A stretch of 64,000 bases of DNA from Psilocybe cubensis. Taxonomy: Eukaryota. The DNA lies in NCBI GenBank assembly GCA_017499595.2, contig CM039008.1, forward strand, positions 2,418,001-2,482,000, given 5' to 3'. Shown in pieces: positions 21,291-30,235 of this stretch. The notes beneath the pieces are model-generated. The model was given only the letters and a program-made list of their open reading frames with translations, ran no database searches and was not told the origin of the DNA. Position 1 is the stretch's first letter. The number at the start of each line of letters is the position of its first letter. The position numbers and the translations under genes are program-made.

Positions 21291-22003
21291 GAAGGCCACT
21301 GGGGTCTCCCTGATCCGTTGTCGGTCTCAACAGCCTGCGAATGTTGGTCAGAGCCACCAGGACGGGTTCGGCTTCCTTTGAATTTTCCGTGTTTCTTTTG
21401 TTTACTGTTTTATTCATTTTTTGATATTAATTCTGGATGTCCTACTAGTAAAATGGATGATGTAATGGTTCCGAAATGCTAGACTCCCCAAAAGTTTATA
21501 CGTTCAATTTTCAATTTGGTGTACAGTAGCAATTATGTATACCAAGTAGAGACTCGGTTAACTAAGAAAATCGCGCTGATATTCGGATAACTAGTATCCT
21601 GGTAATTGACGTAAGGACGATATGCTATGAAAATGTCGGAGGACCGCCACTGCCGCCGACATCAGGACATTTATAGCACTTAAGCAACTTGTGTGCATAT
21701 TTGAAAAAGTAGCAACGCAGGAATCAAAAATGACGGAACTGAACTGAGTTGGTTTGCTAGTGCCTGGTGATAGTAAGCTGTGTGGGATAGAATATTTCTG
21801 TAAAAAATAAGTTCAGTGGCACAACTTATGTAAATTCTGAAATGACACTGGTCCGAGTTGTGCCGCGTGTTGGTGGGCGTTGTCCGGTGCGGGAAATGAG
21901 ATGATAACTCCGACGAACGTCAATGCGATATCTTAATAAAGGATCAGTATGATAAAGCTGCTCTGCACCCTCAAGCTCCGTTCAATTAAACTCTGTAAAA
22001 GAA

Positions 22004-23814
22004 ATGGAACAAATCCAAGGAAACCAAACATATAACCCAACACTAAGCGTTCATGATCAGCGAATGGCCAGCTATGTAGCAGGTACGTCTGTATGATGTT
22101 AGTAAGAATATTTGTTTCATTGGGTCACTGATTTTTTTCAATTGCAAGTGGGTTTAGCTATTTGTGCATTGTACGACCACTGTAAGTCCTGATCCGAGTA
22201 ATTCTTTTTTACCCTGCTGACTCTGTCCATGACACACCCGTACAGTAATCACTCTTGATGGAGAGGTAGGTCTTCTTTTTATTTCTTATACGACTACTAA
22301 ACTCTGGAGTTATTGGTTCCCTATTAAAAGATGGAGATAGTATGGGTATGTCTCATCAATGACAAGATTTTACAGTTATCAACACTAACTCTATGCAATT
22401 TTAGCGCCGTCCAAAATGGACAATAGCCCGGGTTTTATTCCTAATAGTATGAGCCTCAAGCCTTCTCCAGATAAATGGCGTACTAAAATTGAATATAGAA
22501 TCGATATCTTTGCGATGCCATTCTCATGTCAGTGCGATTTTCTGACTTCCATTGACTCTAGTGCTTGAGGTAATCCTTTTACGCCATTTGTACAGATACG
22601 GAGCCGTCGGTAGGAGATCAGTTTTGAAGCGTGTTTAGGATTCTTCCAGCCTAATTAACTGGTATTACATAGACCTAACATTCAATGCACGTGTTACAGA
22701 AATTCAAGTAGGTCTCCAGTTTCTGAAATTCCACATCGACAGTGTACTCACTTTACCTTCATTATGCCAGAAGTAAGTGTTTGTAAAACGCCGTTATTAC
22801 ACTAAAAAATCCAACTTACAGAGCGTTGTAGCTGTAAGTGTTGCTTCATCAATGTGAGCATCCATTTTATTGATCCCTTGGGATGGGAACTTCAGGTCGA
22901 AACCCATTTCTTGTTCTGATATGGGGAACCTTGGTTGCATTTTTGTCCATGCAAGGCAAGCTCGTTTTTCATATCTAGAGGTTCATGAGGCGATAGTATT
23001 TTCAGGGATTGTCGTATTCCGAGTTGCTAGCATGTTTCATCTTTCGCGGACAATAATTATCGTTCTCTCTATCGCTTTCGGTATCGAGATTCTATCGACC
23101 ACCTTAATTCAGGCATTATCAACCCCTGCTGGGTATAGCGGTCCCGGAACAGGTACGTAACTGTGGCGAGGTGGGAGGGATGTAGTTGCTCACTCACATA
23201 AAACTATTAGGACCTTTACCGTCGCCTATATGCTCGCCTCCATTCTCTGCTTTCTGGGCCAACATGTTATGGATAATAATTGTCGTCTATGAGACGATGG
23301 TTCTCTCACTTTCGGTATTCAGAGCAGTTCAAACACACCGCAAAGTTTTCGCTTTCAAAGCCTACGTGATATCCAATAGACCCTCTGTAATGTACATCTT
23401 ACTCCGGGATAGTATCTTTTTCCAACTGGCGTGAGTCATTTTCAATTTATCTCTGCCTTGCATTACCAAAATCCTTGTAACAGAGCTCTTGCAGTCTGTA
23501 CAGCAAATTTTGTGGCATCCGTTAACTTTTCAGTCAGTCTTAGTATGGAGTACTCACATATTTGATTGATTAACTTATGTCCATAGTTTCTCTTAGTTCA
23601 GAACAGCCTTACGGTGGCCACCTTCGCTACACACATCGCTGGTTCACGACTTATGCTCAATTTAAGGGAAGCATATTACAAGCCTTTTGACGATGAATAT
23701 ACTCAAGCAAACATAAAACCAATTGGCTTTGTCCGTGATGTTCCGCCACAAGTTGCCCACATTCTTGACTCCTACGACATCTCACCCCTTTCCCCTACTA
23801 CAACACCGGTTTAA
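22004..23814 (+). CDS. DUF6533-type multi-pass membrane protein (GPCR-like topology), paralogue 1
   Basis: Spliced reading LYDH-LITLDGE-MEIVW-RRPKWTIARVLFLI-NRY...IVVFRVASMF...YILLRDS...GSRLMLNLRE; many very small exons. Confidence 0.82.
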
Positions 23815-24051
23815 TATCAGATTGTTAATAAACAAGGTTTTTGGTGTCCTTTCAATGCTACATGAATTTGAATTTTAGTGAGAAACTGCTTTCCAGTACG
23901 GATTTTGACTGTTAATCATGCTGTATAATCATGCTGTATATATAACGAGCCATCTGGGAAAATTCCAGAATGCCAAGTATCAATCATACGGATCGAACAT
24001 TGAGCGATTGTCATATCACGTCACTAAACTTTGTTGATCCCCTCACTCCAT

Positions 24052-24151
24052 GGGCACATGGTGTAGTTGGTTATCACGCTCGCTTAGCACTGGAAGCCTG
24101 AATGGCTCTGTCACATGCGAGAGGTGTTGGGTTCAATTCCCAATGCGTCCA
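24052..24151 (+). tRNA. tRNA-Ala(AGC) with a 26-nt intron (24090-24115)
   Basis: Acceptor stem GGGCACA/TGCGTCC with the G3:U70 Ala identity pair and one A5-C68 mismatch; anticodon stem CTCGC/GCGAG with AGC at 24086-24088; T arm TTGGG-TTCAATT-CCCAA; oligo-T Pol III terminator directly downstream. Confidence 0.93.
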
Positions 24152-24230
24152 TTTTTTGCTGAATTGGTAAATGGTTATCATGGGCGCTAAGCGTATGGAG
24201 GCAGCTGATCAAGTCCGGAAACAGTTGCAC

Positions 24231-25866
24231 AGGACCCCTGACAATAGGCCCAGAGGACGTTCCGTCGGACGGACAAAAATTTTGAAAATCGACCCCTTCG
24301 GACGTTCCGAAACCGGACAGAAATCACAGATTTTGAGCAAAATGTCGTTCCAAAAATCCGGACAGAAAAGTTGCAGGACCGCCGAGGTTCTTCCTAAAAC
24401 CGGACAAAATATCAGATAAAACAAATGACAAAACTTGTCAACCGAACGATAGTGTAGAGGTAAGCAGTGTGGTTAGTTTCTCCTCTTCGATTCAGTAATA
24501 TGATGGTACTTCAAGTCTTGTTGAAACTTTTTTATTTTTCTCTTAATAACAACTTGAGTTGAGGGCCGTTGCTTCGCACGGCGATACGAGTCCTTGATGC
24601 CCTTTTGCGCTGTACATTTTAAGATTATATATTTTATGACTTTACATAATAAGTATGGTTAAGTTGGCGATACGATGATTCAACTGTCGAATCTAGGATG
24701 CTTCAAAGTGCTCCAATCCCATCTTTCGGGATCCCAGGAAGGAGGCTGGGTGTTAACATCAGGATGACAACGTTGAATATACTGCTTCATCAAATTTGGA
24801 ATATCTATATTTACCATATAATTTGAATTCGTGGTGTATGAAACTAGGTTGGGTAGACTCACTGTCAACTTTGCTACCTCGTAGTCTTGTAGACGGTGAC
24901 TCAGAGGGCTCTCGCATTGCCGACGACGTCGATGAGGTTGTCGCTTGAGCTGAGATACTGCTCGGGAGTAGGGGTCCTGGTTCTGTGATTGACGGGGACG
25001 GTTTTCCTCGACTATTGTAAGCAATATTCTTTCATCTGGGGATTGGGATTTTTGAACGGATCTACATACGGTCTGTTAGTGTGAACAAGGTGTAGTTAAC
25101 CCAGGATTCAGATTGGCAAAGGTAAAGTAGACTATCAGTTGGAGCTGTTTCGATGTAGTGACTAATGATCACGCCGTACTTTAGTCATTGCTTTGAGTGA
25201 GAAAACAAACGGAAAGCACTCACGAAACCAGCCGGTTGCAACTACTACCAATGTCTGTGCCCTTTCAAAAGCATCTTTTCAAGTCTTTGAGCACAGTCAT
25301 GGCCTCTACTTCACTGCAAGACCCACCAAAACTGCCTTGCTCAATGTATCTGAATTTGCACACCTGCCTTCCTGTAAGGTACTCACCCTCCTCTATCATA
25401 AACCCTTGTCTGTCACTGCAGCAGGTTTTGAAGTTCATGCGCAAGATATTTCGCTTTACAAGACATTGGTTGAGGGAGTAGGGAGCATCAAAAAAGCGAT
25501 GAAAATGTTTGCAAAGCGAAACCTAGATAGTAGTACATAGCTTTTTTTGCATCGCATACTCGTTTTATGGTTTTGTATTGTACTAGGCAGGTTTTTTTTA
25601 TTACAGTGATTCTTAACATTGTTCTGAAGCATCCCATTTGCAACTGAACTCAGCTGAACGCGCGCAGCGGCGAAAAAATCAATTTTTAGGCCTGTCCGGA
25701 CACAAATTGGGCCTCCCGAGGGTTGTTCCCGATTTCCGGACAAATTTTTGAAAAAATTGGTAGGTCGTTCTATATCCGGACAGAAATTTTGAAAATCGCG
25801 ACGGACAAAAAACCCAGAAATCGACCTTTTTCGGGAACGTCCTCTGGGCCTATTGTCAGGGGTCCT
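24231..25866. mobile_element. Non-autonomous TIR DNA transposon (1636 bp) with 33-bp perfect TIRs and 8-bp TSD AGTTGCAC
   Basis: AGGACCCCTGACAATAGGCCCAGAGGACGTTCC at 24231-24263 and its reverse complement at 25834-25866; AGTTGCAC at 24223-24230 and 25867-25874; subterminal CGGACA(G/A)AA repeats. Confidence 0.93.
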
Positions 25867-26109
25867 AGTTGCACCCGCATTGGGAACCGCATCAATTCTC
25901 AAATTTTTAAATTTAAGATTAGCACCAATTAGCCAGAGTCGATCAGGAAACCGAACTTCTGGTTGATAAACATTATCATGTAGATGGCTTTGAAGTTTGA
26001 ATCGACGATGTCGATGAACGATGAAGCTTGCAGCTTGAAGTCTAACCAATCACATGCCGATCGTACGGCATACACTCGGCTAGTTTTTGATGGCAGTGAT
26101 GTGTTGGAC

Positions 26110-27338
26110 TGCATCGCCAAAACCGCCAAAACCTTGCCAGATAATATATTGTTAGTAAAGGCAGCTAAGGACACTAAGGCCGCTAAGATAATAAATAGCC
26201 TTACTTGTAAGCACTTACAAGTAAGGACATGTTATGATTAGTATTTTTGGTAATCCTTAGTAGATTCGGACATCCTTAGTTGCCCTTAGTAGACCTTGGA
26301 AGGCAGGGCAAAAATTATTTAACATTTTGAAGAAGCTTCCTCTTTGACTGGTTTCCTGATTTGCTCTTCGATTTCTTCGGACATTGATTAATAAAATAGC
26401 AATAAAAATATATATTTTGAATCAACGGTAGCATTACAAATATAATTTATTTACAACAACCGAATATTGGTCACACTGACTGAGAGGTGACATTATGAAA
26501 TCACGTACAAACATACACCAAACACGGGTTCAGGATGGCCGAGGTCGTTGTCAGAGTAAGTGAAAGCCAGTGAGATCTTCCGACTCGTGTTGGGGTGAGG
26601 TACTCTAAAACCTAGAACTGACAATGGACTCGTCACCAATAACATCAGTGATTCTTGAAGCTTGAAGGTTTGTTTGAAAAGAAACTTACTATTTCTGTGC
26701 CAGCATTAGAAAGTCAAAGGCAAGAGCAGGTGGGAGTAAGTGGAAAGGAGTTGATTGAGTGCTTGAAATTCGTGCGAGCGTCTTTAAAGTCAACGTCCCC
26801 AATTTCAGGGACCCCAATGTCTGACTTTGGTATCATGTGATCACTGACAGACTTCATCTTGAGGAGCGACCAATTTTGTATTTTTAATGTGTGACGATGC
26901 TGTAAAAAGTTGCTTCGACAATGCAAGCTTATTCTAAATATTTGATGGTCAATGAATTGTCCACAAATTTCTTGATCACTCTACAACACTTGTCTAAATG
27001 TTTGTTCGCTTTTTAATTTTCAAGTAAGGCTTGATAAACAAGAAAATTTTACACTAATGCTTTGGGTCTGAATGCATGACAAGACATATAATAGTCATAG
27101 AAAAGAAAGCAAAGCATATAATTCTTTTACACCATATGTATGATCAATTTTTTACCATTAATTCAAATGAGAATTAATATTAAAATGGCACTCAAAGGTC
27201 AACAAATGATTGGCTGACCTTTCAAAGGCAATCCAAGGTCAATGAATATTTTGATTGGCTAGGTTAGGTCACCTAATTCCGGACTTACCTTAAAAGGACA
27301 CAAAGGCAATGCTTGTTTTTGGCGGTTTTCGCAATGTG
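26110..27338. mobile_element. Older degenerate TIR element
   Basis: TGCATCGCCAAAACCGCCAAAA (26110-26131) versus TTTTGGCGGTTTTCGCAATGTG (27317-27338); 13-bp perfect core; subterminal TAAGG/AAGGTCAA-type repeats; AT-rich interior. Confidence 0.55.
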
Positions 27339-28042
27339 GTTGACACTCCGAAATCTCACACGCCTTTTCTGTTTATGCACTTTTCACGTCGCTTTTTCAT
27401 TGAAGGAAAAGCAAAATAATCTTAAAAGCTTTATTATAAATAATATCAATGCCAATTTCTGTGCAAAGGAGGGTTTGAAACTGAATTGACGGTGCGATTG
27501 AACCTAATCAAACCGGCTGGATTGATGACATTGTCCCTACATATACATAGAGTCCCTCCCCAGCATTATCAATTATCTTGGCAAGAGGTGGTTTTCTACA
27601 CTTTGTGATGCCTCTGTTTTACTTAATAATTTGGCTTGTCTGTTGTTTTCCTATACCTTTTAGGGTGGGTTCCATTCGGTCCTGGCTGTGAGTGTTGCCA
27701 TTCTTGCCACTGTGATGATGTTTATTTTGATAGTTGCTTGATTTTAAGTATGTTACTCAATATACTGCAGGTGTTATTTCTATAACGCTACGGATTTCTG
27801 ATGTGTGTAGAAACTGCGAACAATATGACTCATAATATTAAGTCTCAGTCTCCGCCGTAGGCCGCTGGACAGCGCTTAGGCTATGTCATCGTTGCCATAT
27901 TACCTTGTTTGACATATTTTTGATGACATTCAAGATACCTTAAGAAAGGGTCGCGGATTACAACGAACCACTTTCTACCTGATTTCAACCATAGCCTTCT
28001 ACAACAAATCACTAGATTCCCGTTCCCTTCTCTAGGAACCAA

Positions 28043-29772
28043 ATGTATGAGGATCAGGCAAATACGTCTTTCTTTTCTGAAAACAGCGTCCACCAACAAA
28101 GGCTAGTGAGTTATGTTGCAGGTGAGTCGCAAGGCTAAGACCTATTACAATTAGGCTGTGATCTGAGCTTTGCATAGTTGGACTGGCTGTGGGCGCGTTG
28201 TATGATCACTGTAAGCATCGTGCATGACCCGTTAATCACCCACTCACTGGCGTTTCTTGTTGTGTGTATAGGTATCACTCTTAACGAAGAGGTAAAATGA
28301 TTCAACCTGACCTTGCTGAGATACGTTTCATATCAATGGTCATACACCCTTTCTAGATACAAATTATATGGGTAGAAATTACCGCCTTTATTCGGACTAA
28401 GACGCTGACTTCTGTCTGACCAGCGTCGTCCAAAATGGAGGATCGTCCAAGGACTATTTCTTGTTGTAAGTTCTTCAGCGCTCTCATACGTCTGACAATT
28501 AAAAATGCTGTTCAGAACCGATATCTGTGTGATGCACTGCTTATGTAAGGGTCCTCACATTTCTCGCATCACTAGTGGGTTGCATTAACAACTTTGCCGA
28601 TATCCTGTGTCATTGATAGATACGGCGCCATAGGTAAGCAATGATCATCATTTTATGCTCAGGTTACAGCCTGAATATATTTTTCTGAGCTCAGCCCTGA
28701 CTTCAAATGCGGAGGCCACGGAAACTAAAGTATGTTTTCGAAGTCTGAACTTGGTGTTGTGTCCAACTAAACTCCTGATCAACAGAAGTGTGTGTTTTAC
28801 CCCTAAATTAACTTCAAATTTCATTAACATGAGGCTATCATAGATGTCTGTCTGGCTAGAGATTTTCTCAATGTCAAAGTATTGATATTTTGGTAATACA
28901 GGCCAATATCCATTTCTTGCATTAGCGTGGACAACTCTGATTGCTTTCTGGTGTATGCAGGGTAAGTAGTTTGCATGAAAACGATTAAGATGCATCTTCC
29001 ACTGATCAGTGGAACCTTTAGGGATAGTTGTTTTTCGGATATCAAGCATGTTCCATCACTCTCGGGCAATAATTTTTGCCCTTTTAATTGCTTTCTTCAC
29101 TGAAGTTATATCGACGACTGTGATACAGGCAGTCTCAACTCCATCGGCATATACACCAGGTGAGCCTGTAACGTCTCTTGTAATGCTACCGTTACTCTAA
29201 GTAATCTACTAGACTCTCCTTTGTTCCCAGTATGCTCACCTCCTCCAACCAGCTCCTGGTCAAATGCCTTCTGGATAGTAGTCATGGTCTACGAGGTATT
29301 CCTTCTTGGGCTGTCAATATTTAAAGCAGCCCAAACCTACTGGGAAGTGATTGCTCTCAAGGAGCATGCATTAACAGAAAACGCTTCCATTATGTATATC
29401 TTACTACGGGATAGTATTCTCTTTCCATTTGCGTAAGCTTTTAGAGTTACCTTTATGTGTTTCAATTGACAGAAGATAATTGCAGAGCTGTAGCCGTCTG
29501 CGCTGCAAACCTTGCTGGAAGCGTGTATAATTCGGTGACCCGTTTCTATTGGCACGCTTTCCGTTGTTACTAACAATTATTATTAGTTCTTTCTTGCTCA
29601 AGCAAGTGTATCCCTAGCCGGGTTTGCTACCCACATTGTCGGGTCGCGTCTCATTCTTAATTTGCGTGAGGCATATTATCGACCGTTTGACGATGAATAC
29701 AGCCAGTCAAACACACTTCCCATCGGATTTACTCGTGGGATACAACAGACAAGTAGTATATCACACTCATAG
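28043..29772 (+). CDS. DUF6533-type multi-pass membrane protein, paralogue 2
   Basis: Same exon architecture as 22004..23814: LYDH-CITLNEE-IQIIW-RRPKWRIVQGLFLV-NRY...IVVFRISSMF...YILLRDS...GSRLILNLRE; stop TAG 29770-29772. Confidence 0.82.
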
Positions 29773-30235
29773 ACCTTCTCTACCACTTCGATGTAACTGT
29801 TAAAGATAAATCGACTCCAGCCAGGTCATTGGGTTTTGGTTCATCTTCCCTTTGCAAGCTGGCGGCTTTGGGATACATACATCTCATTCACATCGTAACG
29901 GAGATTAAAAGGAGCATTATCACGTACAACCATAGGGAGCAAAAATTACTGCCATGTTTACGAACGTGTTGAATGGAAGTTTGCACCACATGAGATACTT
30001 CGGGGATACTTTATCCCTTCACTCCTAACCCCTGTTTCCCTTAATGAGCCCCTAATCGCGTTCATCCATAAATAGATTTGAGGCCCCATAGTATCAGCAG
30101 CGTCGTTTTGTACAGCCCAATTGTGTAGACAACGATATTATGCGTCTTAACAGGGTATCTAATGGTCTCCAAGTTAAATCATATTATATCTAACCTCTAC
30201 ATTTAGAGAAAGAAGGATTGTCCTCATTTCTACGT

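What the first reader, a model, noticed from the sequence alone, without database searches (positions are those of the whole stretch)
28695..28961. The tandem 2-nt microexons are conserved in paralogue 2 and build the same Cys
Seen: a 35-nt exon (28695-28729), then cag|AA|gtgtgt (28786-28787) and tag|AT|gtctgt (28844-28845), separated by three introns of exactly 56 nt each. The result reads ...ETK-K-C-QYPFLALAW. The intron sequences differ between the paralogues, yet the 35/2/2 architecture and the split Cys codon (T+GC versus T+GT) are kept. This is internal evidence that the arrangement is under selection.
Basis: seen in the sequence. Interest (0 to 1): 0.8.

Follow-up and report, generated by a model that had tools for sequence, protein, structure and literature searches.

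The report
Two tandem 2-nt exons, mushroom receptor gene
A mushroom gene for a receptor-like membrane protein almost certainly carries two back-to-back exons of only two bases each, an old feature of the gene family that prediction programs often miss, losing a conserved cysteine.

Summary
Observation confirmed exactly: a 35-nt exon, cag|AA|gtgtgt, tag|AT|gtctgt and a 60-nt exon, separated by three 56-nt introns.

Only with both dinucleotides does the frame stay open. The full 15-exon models give intact proteins of 307 aa (P2) and 324 aa (P1).

The same 35/2/2/60 layout occurs in paralogue 1 (22673-22955). It also occurs in a distant family member on a metagenome contig (L007), in the other main clade of the family tree. 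The nine introns share no similarity. No shuffle of 20,000 per gene gives such a parse.

The spliced models align without gaps to intron-free, probably cDNA-derived homologues. All of these carry the Cys at the same offset (6 of 6). Only 16 of 35 genome-annotated models do.

The Cys sits at the start of helix 3 of a 7-helix, GPCR-like DUF6533 protein.

No RNA of this organism covered the gene. Three related loci lack the third intron, so the frame and the Cys are constrained, not the tandem layout.

Two-nt exons are already documented in Coprinopsis cinerea (PMC12230235). This is a new member of a known kind.

The parts
28043..29772 (+). Paralogue 2 (P2): a 15-exon, 14-intron gene for a 307-aa DUF6533-type 7-helix membrane protein. 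Exon lengths are 79/33/20/15/42/29/14/35/2/2/60/138/220/49/last. All introns are 50-75 nt.
   Evidence: Model built by coordinates gives an open frame. blastp of the model against Galerina DUF6533 proteins P0010 and P0003 gives 41-42% identity at E 1e-73 (names).
28695..28729 (+). Exon 8 (35 nt). It ends on a complete Lys codon and is followed by the donor GTATGT.
   Evidence: Donor PWM score 5.5 bits, equal to the median of the ordinary introns.
28730..28785 (+). Intron 8 (56 nt), GTATGT..CAACAG.
28786..28787 (+). Microexon 1, AA: the first two bases of Lys90.
   Evidence: Skipping it gives a premature stop.
28788..28843 (+). Intron 9 (56 nt), GTGTGT..CATAG.
   Evidence: Donor 4.1 bits, acceptor 6.9 bits.
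28844..28845 (+). Microexon 2, AT: the third base of Lys90 and the first base (T) of the Cys91 codon.
   Evidence: Skipping it gives a premature stop.
28846..28901 (+). Intron 10 (56 nt), GTCTGT..ATACAG. It splits the Cys codon as T|GC.
   Evidence: Donor 5.3 bits, acceptor 3.3 bits.
28902..28961 (+). Exon 11 (60 nt). It starts with GC, completing Cys91, and encodes most of predicted helix 3.
   Evidence: Helix assignment comes from the AF2 model of homologue P0007.
22004..23814 (+). Paralogue 1 (P1): the same 15-exon layout, 324 aa, 58% identical to P2.
22673..22707 (+). P1 exon 8 (35 nt), donor GTAGGT.
22771..22772 (+). P1 microexon 1, AA (cag|AA|gtaagt).
   Evidence: Donor 8.4 bits.
22832..22833 (+). 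P1 microexon 2, CT (tag|CT|gtaagt). Its T is the first base of the Cys91 codon.
   Evidence: Donor 8.7 bits.
22896..22955 (+). P1 exon 11 (60 nt). It starts with GT, completing Cys91, and is followed by a GC donor (gcaagc).

Best explanation
AA (28786-28787) and AT (28844-28845) are two constitutive 2-nt exons of an intron-dense gene for a DUF6533-type, GPCR-like 7-helix membrane protein.

The three flanking introns are 56 nt each, like every other intron of this gene (50-75 nt). They are recognised individually, by intron definition. A 2-nt exon cannot carry a 3'-splice-site complex and a 5'-splice-site complex at once, so the three introns must be removed one after another. Each removal leaves a normal 5' exon in front of the next donor. 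This stepwise mechanism is inferred, not shown.

The four bases restore the reading frame. They supply one variable residue (Lys90) and the first base of Cys91. Cys91 is the family-invariant Cys at the outer end of helix 3. It probably forms the GPCR-type disulfide with Cys164 in the loop between helices 4 and 5 (inferred).

The layout was inherited, not newly evolved. It is shared by paralogue 1 and by a member of the other main clade of the family. Some relatives have lost the third intron.
For: 1. Sequence. All six splice junctions are canonical. Microexon donor scores are 4.1 and 5.3 bits in P2, 8.4 and 8.7 in P1, and 7.4 and 4.9 in L007. The leave-one-out median for the 22 ordinary introns is 5.5 bits, with a minimum of -1.3.

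2. Frame. With both microexons, the 15-exon models are open over 307 and 324 aa. Skipping both gives a stop 7 codons after exon 8. Skipping either one gives a stop after 47 codons (P2) or 28 codons (P1).

3. Independent recurrence. P1 has 35/2/2/60. So does L007, with ag|GA|gtaagt and ag|TT|gtacgt, then GC... The introns share no similarity. In the tree, P1 and P2 lie in a different main clade from L007, each clade with SH-aLRT 97.

4. Chance. 0 of 20,000 shuffles per gene gave a 2+2 parse.

5. Product.
- The P2 and P1 models align without gaps to 7 homologues whose whole ORF lies uninterrupted on contigs of 1.0-1.9 kb. I take these to be cDNA-derived.
- All 7 have the Cys in that column.
- At the fixed offset from the helix-3 anchor, 6 of 6 such sequences have Cys, and the residue before it is S, S, S, G, Q or L, never V.

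6. Precedent. The long-read annotation of Coprinopsis cinerea reports 57 exons of 2 nt in 50 genes (PMC12230235, passages read).

7. No indels in this region appear in the listed rows for the DNA contigs of three other strains. The X1 contig spans 28375-29737 with 0 gaps, and the single gap in X2 and X3 is listed at 28136.
Against: No transcript of this organism was seen. The only RNA-like run laid (X4) covered 25183-25816 and nothing of P1 or P2.

For P2 itself, a cryptic donor 4 nt downstream (GTAT|GTTTTC) with one 168-nt intron would give the same length and also keep the Cys, reading K-V-C. For P2 the choice therefore rests on splice-site quality and on comparison with other genes.

It is not on record.

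The branch-site motif YTRAY is found in only part of the introns, ordinary or not, so it does not discriminate.

Two P1 microexon acceptors score low, at -0.3 and 0.8 bits.
Confidence: 0.85

Rival explanations
1. A single long intron with a +4 donor. The spliceosome uses the GT four bases downstream of the exon-8 donor and one acceptor at 28901 (22895 in P1), removing 168 nt (184 nt in P1). The internal AG|NN|GT units would be chance features.
For: It keeps the frame and the length. In P2 it even keeps the Cys, reading K-V-C. Several public gene models read V-S, V-G or V-C at this site (P0033, P0039, P0074, P0067, P0032, P0034). That is the reading such a choice would give.
Against: The +4 donors are poor. 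P2 GTTTTC scores -4.8 bits, and 91% of all GT in the window score as well or better. P1 GTCTCC scores 1.4 bits.

In L007 the +4 position is GC, not GT (-6.5 bits). That gene has no usable single-intron alternative.

In P1 this model replaces the invariant Cys by Gly.

An intron of 168-207 nt would be an outlier among 22 ordinary introns of 50-75 nt.

None of the 6 intron-free homologues has Val before the Cys.

The chance of the internal units is 0 of 20,000 shuffles, three times over.
Confidence: 0.06
2. The units are relics. P2, or both copies, is not productively spliced, and most transcripts skip the dinucleotides and are degraded. That would make it a pseudogene or an unproductive-splicing switch.
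For: No RNA cover was found for P1 or P2. This is a blank, not evidence. Skipping gives premature stops, so such a switch is mechanically possible.
Against: Both paralogues keep open 15-exon frames with all 28 splice sites canonical, apart from one GC donor. They are 58% identical in protein while their introns are unalignable. That pattern is expected under purifying selection on the coding exons. The microexon donors in P1 match the consensus well (8.4 and 8.7 bits).
Confidence: 0.06
3. In P2, retention of intron 8 followed by one 114-nt intron (donor 28788, acceptor 28901), adding 19 residues before helix 3.
For: It is open in frame and was the best-scoring single-intron alternative in P2, at 7.3 bits summed.
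Against: It breaks the fixed spacing of 24 residues between NRY and the Cys that is seen in the intron-free homologues, and it replaces the Cys by Ser. It has no counterpart in P1 or L007.
Confidence: 0.02

Closest known systems
Ultra-short exons (1-3 nt) in the long-read annotation of Coprinopsis cinerea (PMC12230235; passages read)
   Same: The same order of fungi (Agaricales) and the same size class. That paper reports 57 exons of 2 nt in 50 genes, 13 of 1 nt and 27 of 3 nt. Omitting such exons creates premature stops, and they break automatic gene models.
   Different: That paper gives genome-wide counts. The passages I read name cytochrome P450 as an enriched family and do not mention DUF6533 or adjacent pairs. 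Here two 2-nt exons lie next to each other, split one conserved Cys codon, and are traced across two clades of a gene family. Its supplements, which may list the genes, were closed.
Single-nucleotide exon of Fusarium CYP621A (PMC12940212, abstract read) and of Arabidopsis (PMC4674806, search listing only)
   Same: An ultra-short exon is required for phase compatibility, encodes part of a conserved codon, is missed by annotation pipelines, and was found by comparing orthologues.
   Different: Those are single 1-nt exons confirmed with SRA reads. Here there are two tandem 2-nt exons, in a basidiomycete receptor-like gene, without RNA confirmation.
Recursive splicing at zero-length exons (ratchet points) of long animal introns (recalled, no call)
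   Same: A 3' splice site lies directly against a 5' splice site, so removal has to be stepwise.
   Different: There nothing is left in the mRNA and the introns are very long. Here 2 nt are kept at each step, the introns are 56-81 nt, and removing the whole interval would shift the frame.
Ustilago maydis Gpe1 and DUF6533 proteins as a basidiomycete GPCR family (PMC13652807; passages read)
   Same: Seven-helix architecture. The paper reports DUF6533 proteins as structural relatives of Gpe1. It predicts a disulfide in Gpe1 between helix 3 (Cys108) and extracellular loop 2 (Cys178), 70 residues apart. In P2 the two conserved Cys are 73 apart (Cys91 and Cys164).
   Different: No ligand or signalling is known for the window's proteins. 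The disulfide is inferred here from position and conservation only. The paper says nothing about gene structure in the passages read.

Membership tests
DUF6533 (Pfam PF20151) fungal 7-helix membrane proteins | Pfam DUF6533 domain at the N-terminus (helix 1 to the start of helix 2, ending near the NRY motif) | tested here: met
   hmmscan shows PF20151 above its cut-off in homologues P0007, P0003, P0010 and P0074, at 38.7-58.4 bits against a cut-off of 24.1. The spliced P2 model could not be sent to Pfam because joined sequence is not typed into tools. It does align to P0010 and P0003 from residue 18 to about 290 at 41-42% identity, E 1e-73, covering their domain.
DUF6533 (Pfam PF20151) fungal 7-helix membrane proteins | Seven transmembrane helices, GPCR-like fold | tested here: met
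   The AF2 model of homologue P0007 has pLDDT 78.4 and pTM 0.75, with seven long helices. Foldseek against the PDB gave 0 matches at E <= 0.001, but all listed top rows are GPCRs (E 4.5e-3 to 2.5e-2, TM 0.34-0.55). This was tested on a homologue, not on P2.
DUF6533 (Pfam PF20151) fungal 7-helix membrane proteins | Conserved Cys at the start of helix 3 paired with a Cys in the loop between helices 4 and 5 | tested here: met
   C79 is invariant and C154 at least 90% conserved in 14 sequences. In the model, C79 lies at the start of helix 76-108 and C154 in loop 140-160. P2 has Cys91 and Cys164; P1 has Cys91 and Cys167. The disulfide itself was not tested.
Ultra-short (<=3 nt) spliceosomal microexons of Agaricomycetes | AG|N(1-3)|GT with canonical flanking splice signals and introns of normal length | tested here: met
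Ultra-short (<=3 nt) spliceosomal microexons of Agaricomycetes | Needed for the reading frame; omission gives a premature stop | tested here: met
Ultra-short (<=3 nt) spliceosomal microexons of Agaricomycetes | Present in the mature transcript (cDNA or long reads) | not testable with these tools
   No RNA run covering the gene was listed or laid. There is only indirect support, from intron-free homologues with the predicted spacing and Cys.
Recursive-splicing ratchet points / stwintrons | The whole interval is removed and nothing from inside it remains in the mRNA | tested here: not met
   Joining exon 8 directly to exon 11 shifts the frame and gives a stop after 7 codons in both paralogues.

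The most novel reading that the evidence does not exclude
Three introns packed into four coding bases may be an ancient, family-wide feature of basidiomycete DUF6533 receptors. It would predate the split of the two main clades sampled here. It would then work as an obligatorily ordered splicing cascade. Missing either 2-nt exon yields a premature stop, so the fungus could tune how much receptor is made by regulated unproductive splicing. On this reading the site is also a hot spot where introns are differentially kept or lost: 2+2 in P1, P2 and L007; 2+62 in L001 and L005, and 2+68 in L003; and possibly one intron only in Psathyrellaceae.
Probability: 0.15. Interest if true: 0.7.

Novelty: new member of a known kind. 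Interest (0 to 1): 0.42.

Why it matters
It is a clean, comparatively supported case of two adjacent 2-nt exons. That is close to the lower limit of what a spliceosome can keep in a message, and it was found from DNA alone.

Practically, it shows why public models of this large mushroom receptor-like family are so often wrong at this site. Only 16 of the 35 annotated models that cover the site keep the conserved Cys, against 6 of 6 intron-free sequences. Others read V-S or V-G, carry 20-25 extra residues, or lack the N-terminus.

Studies of DUF6533 receptors that rely on these models, whether structure prediction, conservation mapping or expression constructs, would miss a probable disulfide Cys.

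The locus also offers a natural substrate for asking in which order neighbouring mini-introns are removed.

Tried and rejected
- Whole genome: none is held for this window.
- RNA evidence: no RNA holder was listed. The four runs laid were three DNA runs of other strains, whose contigs run through the introns, and one RNA-like run that covered only 25183-25816. The table of base differences was cut before the region of interest (203 rows not shown). Strain variation at the microexon splice sites could therefore not be read.
- First protein search with the 72-aa exon, longer proteins: no hits.
- Search with the Psilocybe cyanescens protein P0001, residues 1-240: only 7 hits, and no close well-modelled orthologue.
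- Earlier findings of this scan: nothing on this genome and nothing relevant by words.
- Tandem duplication as the origin of the three equal 56-nt introns: no residual similarity. The equal lengths are most likely coincidence.
- Branch-site motif YTRAY: present in only part of the ordinary introns too, so it does not discriminate.
- Other family members in the window: none besides P1 and P2.
- Of the 9 metagenome loci, L002, L004 and L006 start inside the gene, and L008 and L009 match only 21 residues. These five were not used for the architecture.
- Coprinopsis cinerea proteins of the old and new annotations (P0065, P0067) differ at this site, but neither shows the canonical spacing. They gave no test.
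- Foldseek against the PDB: no match at E <= 0.001.

Full report
**1. The observation**

Reading 27800-30200 and cutting the four pieces by coordinate confirms the finding base for base.
- Exon 28695-28729 is 35 nt, in gctcag|...|gtatgt.
- AA lies at 28786-28787, in caacag|AA|gtgtgt.
- AT lies at 28844-28845, in tcatag|AT|gtctgt.
- Exon 28902-28961 is 60 nt, in atacag|GC...GG|gtaagt.
- The three introns are exactly 56 nt each.
- Joined, one frame is open and reads ..ETK-K-C-QYPFLALAW...

**2. The gene**

A translated self-search of the window found one paralogue, at about 22000-23800 on the same strand. No other family member is in the window.

I built both genes exon by exon from the sequence and checked them by script. 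Both have 15 exons with the same lengths: 79/33/20/15/42/29/14/35/2/2/60/138 or 147/220/49/last. They give open frames of 307 aa (P2, 28043-29772) and 324 aa (P1, 22004-23814), 58% identical. All 28 introns are 50-75 nt long.

P1 has the same local layout:
- exon 22673-22707 (35 nt)
- cag|AA|gtaagt at 22771-22772
- tag|CT|gtaagt at 22832-22833
- exon 22896-22955 (60 nt)
- introns of 63, 59 and 62 nt

Here the Cys codon is T+GT.

**3. Is it more than chance, and are there other parses?**

I made position weight matrices from the 22 ordinary introns of the two genes.
- The microexon donors score 4.1 and 5.3 bits (P2) and 8.4 and 8.7 bits (P1).
- The leave-one-out median for ordinary donors is 5.5 bits, with a minimum of -1.3.
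- The microexon acceptors score 6.9 and 3.3 bits (P2) and -0.3 and 0.8 bits (P1). The ordinary median is 3.6.

I shuffled the interval between the outer sites, keeping the first 8 and the last 16 bases. This gave 0 of 20,000 shuffles with any 2+2 parse of that quality, in each of P2, P1 and L007. Any frame-restoring parse with one or two microexons of 1-6 nt turned up in 338, 115 and 4 of 20,000 shuffles.

Enumerating all single-intron, frame-keeping, stop-free alternatives gave 10 for P2, 4 for P1 and 3 for L007.
- The only one that keeps the family spacing is the donor 4 nt downstream of the exon-8 donor.
- That donor is GTTTTC in P2, at -4.8 bits; 91% of all GT in the window score as well or better.
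- In P1 it is GTCTCC, at 1.4 bits.
- In L007 the position is GC, not GT, at -6.5 bits.
- This parse would read K-V-C in P2 but Q-V-G in P1, which loses the Cys.

Skipping both microexons gives a stop after 7 codons. Skipping either one gives a stop after 47 codons (P2) or 28 codons (P1).

**4. Relatives**

No genome is held for the window. A profile of the 72-aa exon of both paralogues found 25 proteins at E <= 0.001. A search with the full-length hit P0007 found 53. These carry PF20151 and UniProt's name 'DUF6533 domain-containing protein'. They come from Psilocybe, Galerina, Gymnopilus, Hypholoma, Pholiota, Agrocybe, Flammula, Coprinopsis and others. Pfam confirmed DUF6533 on P0007, P0003, P0010 and P0074.

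The best hit, P0001 (Psilocybe cyanescens), is a fused model of two tandem copies that lacks this region.

For eight proteins the ORF lies uninterrupted on a contig of 1.0-1.9 kb: P0007, P0026, P0027, P0030, P0035, P0057, P0066 and P0073. Every genomic member seen here is full of introns, so I take these eight to be cDNA-derived. This is an inference.

- Seven of the eight cover the site; P0066 lacks the N-terminal part. The P2 and P1 models align to these seven without a gap from the NRY motif to helix 4, and all seven have the Cys in that column.
- I then used a fixed offset of 18 residues before the helix-3 anchor. The anchor was found in 51 of the 80 sequences examined.
- At that offset, 6 of 6 intron-free sequences have Cys. 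The residue before it is S, S, S, G, Q or L.
- Of the 43 annotated models with the anchor, 8 are N-terminally truncated.
- Of the 35 that cover the site, 16 have Cys, 3 read V-S, 1 reads V-G and 15 read something else.
- Several models carry 19-25 extra residues just before the Cys (P0003, P0010, P0022, P0060).
- P0060 (Ephemerocybe angulata, annotated) differs from the intron-free P0057 by a 22-residue insert at exactly this place.
- V-S and V-G are what a +4 donor on GTAAGT or GTAGGT would produce when joined to an exon that starts with G. I read these models as predictor artefacts (inference).

**5. Genomic relatives**

One scan of metagenome contigs found 9 loci. Four contain the upstream region.

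L007 has exons of 29/14/35/2/2/60 nt, the same lengths as exons 6-11 of the window genes. Its junctions are AAC|gtaagc, ag|GA|gtaagt and ag|TT|gtacgt, then GC... Its introns are 81, 61 and 65 nt. The model reads ..TQN-D-C-NLIN...

L005 has 35/2/62: cag|CA|gtgagt, then tag|ATGT.., reading ..QD-Q-C-KHPE.. at the canonical spacing. L003 is 84% identical to L005 over the aligned stretch and has 35/2/68, with two extra codons. L001 has 29/2/62. In these three loci the second dinucleotide is continuous with the next exon, so the third intron is absent.

A quick maximum-likelihood tree was built on the part from helix 3 to the C-terminus. It used 58 rows and 213 columns, with SH-aLRT support only and a midpoint root.
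- It gives two main clades, each with support 97.
- P1, P2, L001, L003 and L005 lie in one 10-row clade (support 96).
- L007 lies in the other main clade, next to two Agrocybe pediades proteins (support 99).
- The 2+2 state therefore occurs on both sides of the deepest split sampled, and the fewest changes of state is 2.
- I read this as an old 2+2 layout with later loss of the third intron (inference). Regain cannot be excluded.

None of the nine introns of P2, P1 and L007 resembles another (36 pairs, highest z = 2.3).

**6. RNA**

The run search listed no RNA holder. Runs X1-X3 hold 49% of the sampled words and proved to be DNA of other strains. Their contigs run straight through the introns, for example 27337-29737 in one piece. 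The RNA-like run X4 covered only 25183-25816.

The direct test therefore could not be made. The DNA contigs show no indel in the microexon region among the listed rows. The list of base differences was cut before this region.

**7. What the Cys is**

In an alignment of 14 clean family members, the Cys (C79 of P0007) is invariant and a second Cys (C154) is at least 90% conserved.

The AlphaFold model of P0007 has pLDDT 78.4 and pTM 0.75. It has seven long helices, with C79 at the start of helix 3 (76-108) and C154 in the loop 140-160 between helices 4 and 5.

Foldseek found no PDB match at E <= 0.001. Every listed top row is a G-protein-coupled receptor, at E 4.5e-3 to 2.5e-2.

A 2026 paper on Ustilago maydis Gpe1 reports DUF6533 proteins as structural relatives of that GPCR. 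It predicts a helix-3 to ECL2 disulfide in Gpe1, Cys108-Cys178 (PMC13652807, passages read). In P2 the two Cys are residues 91 and 164; in P1 they are 91 and 167.

That the microexon-built Cys forms this disulfide is an inference from position and conservation.

**8. Mechanism**

Shown: canonical splice signals around each dinucleotide, the frame requirement, and recurrence in independent genes.

Inferred: the introns are short enough to be defined individually, which is the usual mode in fungi (established knowledge, no call). A 2-nt exon cannot hold the complexes of both neighbouring splice sites at once, so removal must be stepwise. The order is unknown.

**9. What is known**

The long-read annotation of Coprinopsis cinerea reports 1,165 gene models with an internal exon of <=15 nt. 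Among these are 57 exons of 2 nt in 50 genes (PMC12230235, passages). A 1-nt exon is described for Fusarium CYP621A (PMC12940212, abstract) and for Arabidopsis (PMC4674806, listing only).

Three literature searches turned up no description of tandem 2-nt exons or of microexons in DUF6533 genes. I judged this from titles and abstract starts only.
- 'DUF6533': 5 papers.
- 'microexon' + 'basidiomycete' + 'intron': 9 papers.
- 'tandem / consecutive / adjacent microexons' and variants: 12 papers, 9 listed, none on fungi by the listing.

The supplements of PMC12230235 may list such genes and were closed.

**10. Verdict**

The microexon reading is very probably right; I put it at 0.85, without cDNA. 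The Cys is conserved.

The claim that the arrangement itself is selected is not supported, because relatives do without the third intron.

The kind of feature is already known in Agaricales. This is a new, well-supported and unusually compact member of it. Its practical consequence concerns the annotation of a receptor-like family.

Noticed in passing
window 28083-29737, joint 29737->28083: In the DNA contigs of all three other strains (X1-X3), a further, diverged tandem copy of P2 follows directly after P2. Pieces of it align at 28083-28215, 28512-28546, 28727-28790, 28906-29146, 29238-29435 and 29583-29737. The window has no such copy downstream. This is either a copy-number polymorphism or a collapsed assembly. 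The best database hit, P0001, is likewise a fused model of two tandem copies.
   Followed up: partly
window 24223-25866 and 26110-27336: Both segments are skipped in the contigs of the three other strains (joints 24222->25867 and 26109->27337). Parts of 24036-25904 have 7-15 times the depth of the flanks, which suggests a repeated or mobile element inserted in this strain. The RNA-like run X4 shows a spliced joint 25345->25422 (GT..AG) there. No ORF of 90 aa or more looked clearly coding, but none was searched against a protein library.
   Followed up: partly
window 22956-23005: Intron 11 of paralogue 1 uses a GC donor (AAG|gcaagc). The same intron of paralogue 2 has GT (AGG|gtaagt).
   Followed up: no
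proteins P0003 and P0010 (Galerina marginata, neighbouring accessions on one contig): These are the closest full-length relatives of P1 and P2, and they lie close together on one contig, much like P1 and P2 here. Both public models carry 19-20 extra residues just before the Cys. In P0003 the insert begins with R-F-V and ends with S. That fits a 2-nt exon followed by a retained intron read in frame (inference, DNA not seen).
   Followed up: no
proteins P0057 vs P0060: The intron-free sequence and the annotated Ephemerocybe angulata protein differ only by a 22-residue insert directly before the Cys. The insert starts with Y after a Leu. That fits a retained 66-nt intron one base upstream of the Cys codon. 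This lineage may keep only the middle one of the three introns (inference).
   Followed up: no
window 28730-28901: The three introns of P2 are exactly 56 nt each, as is intron 1 of the gene. They share no sequence similarity. In P1 and L007 the lengths differ (63/59/62 and 81/61/65). The equal lengths look coincidental.
   Followed up: yes
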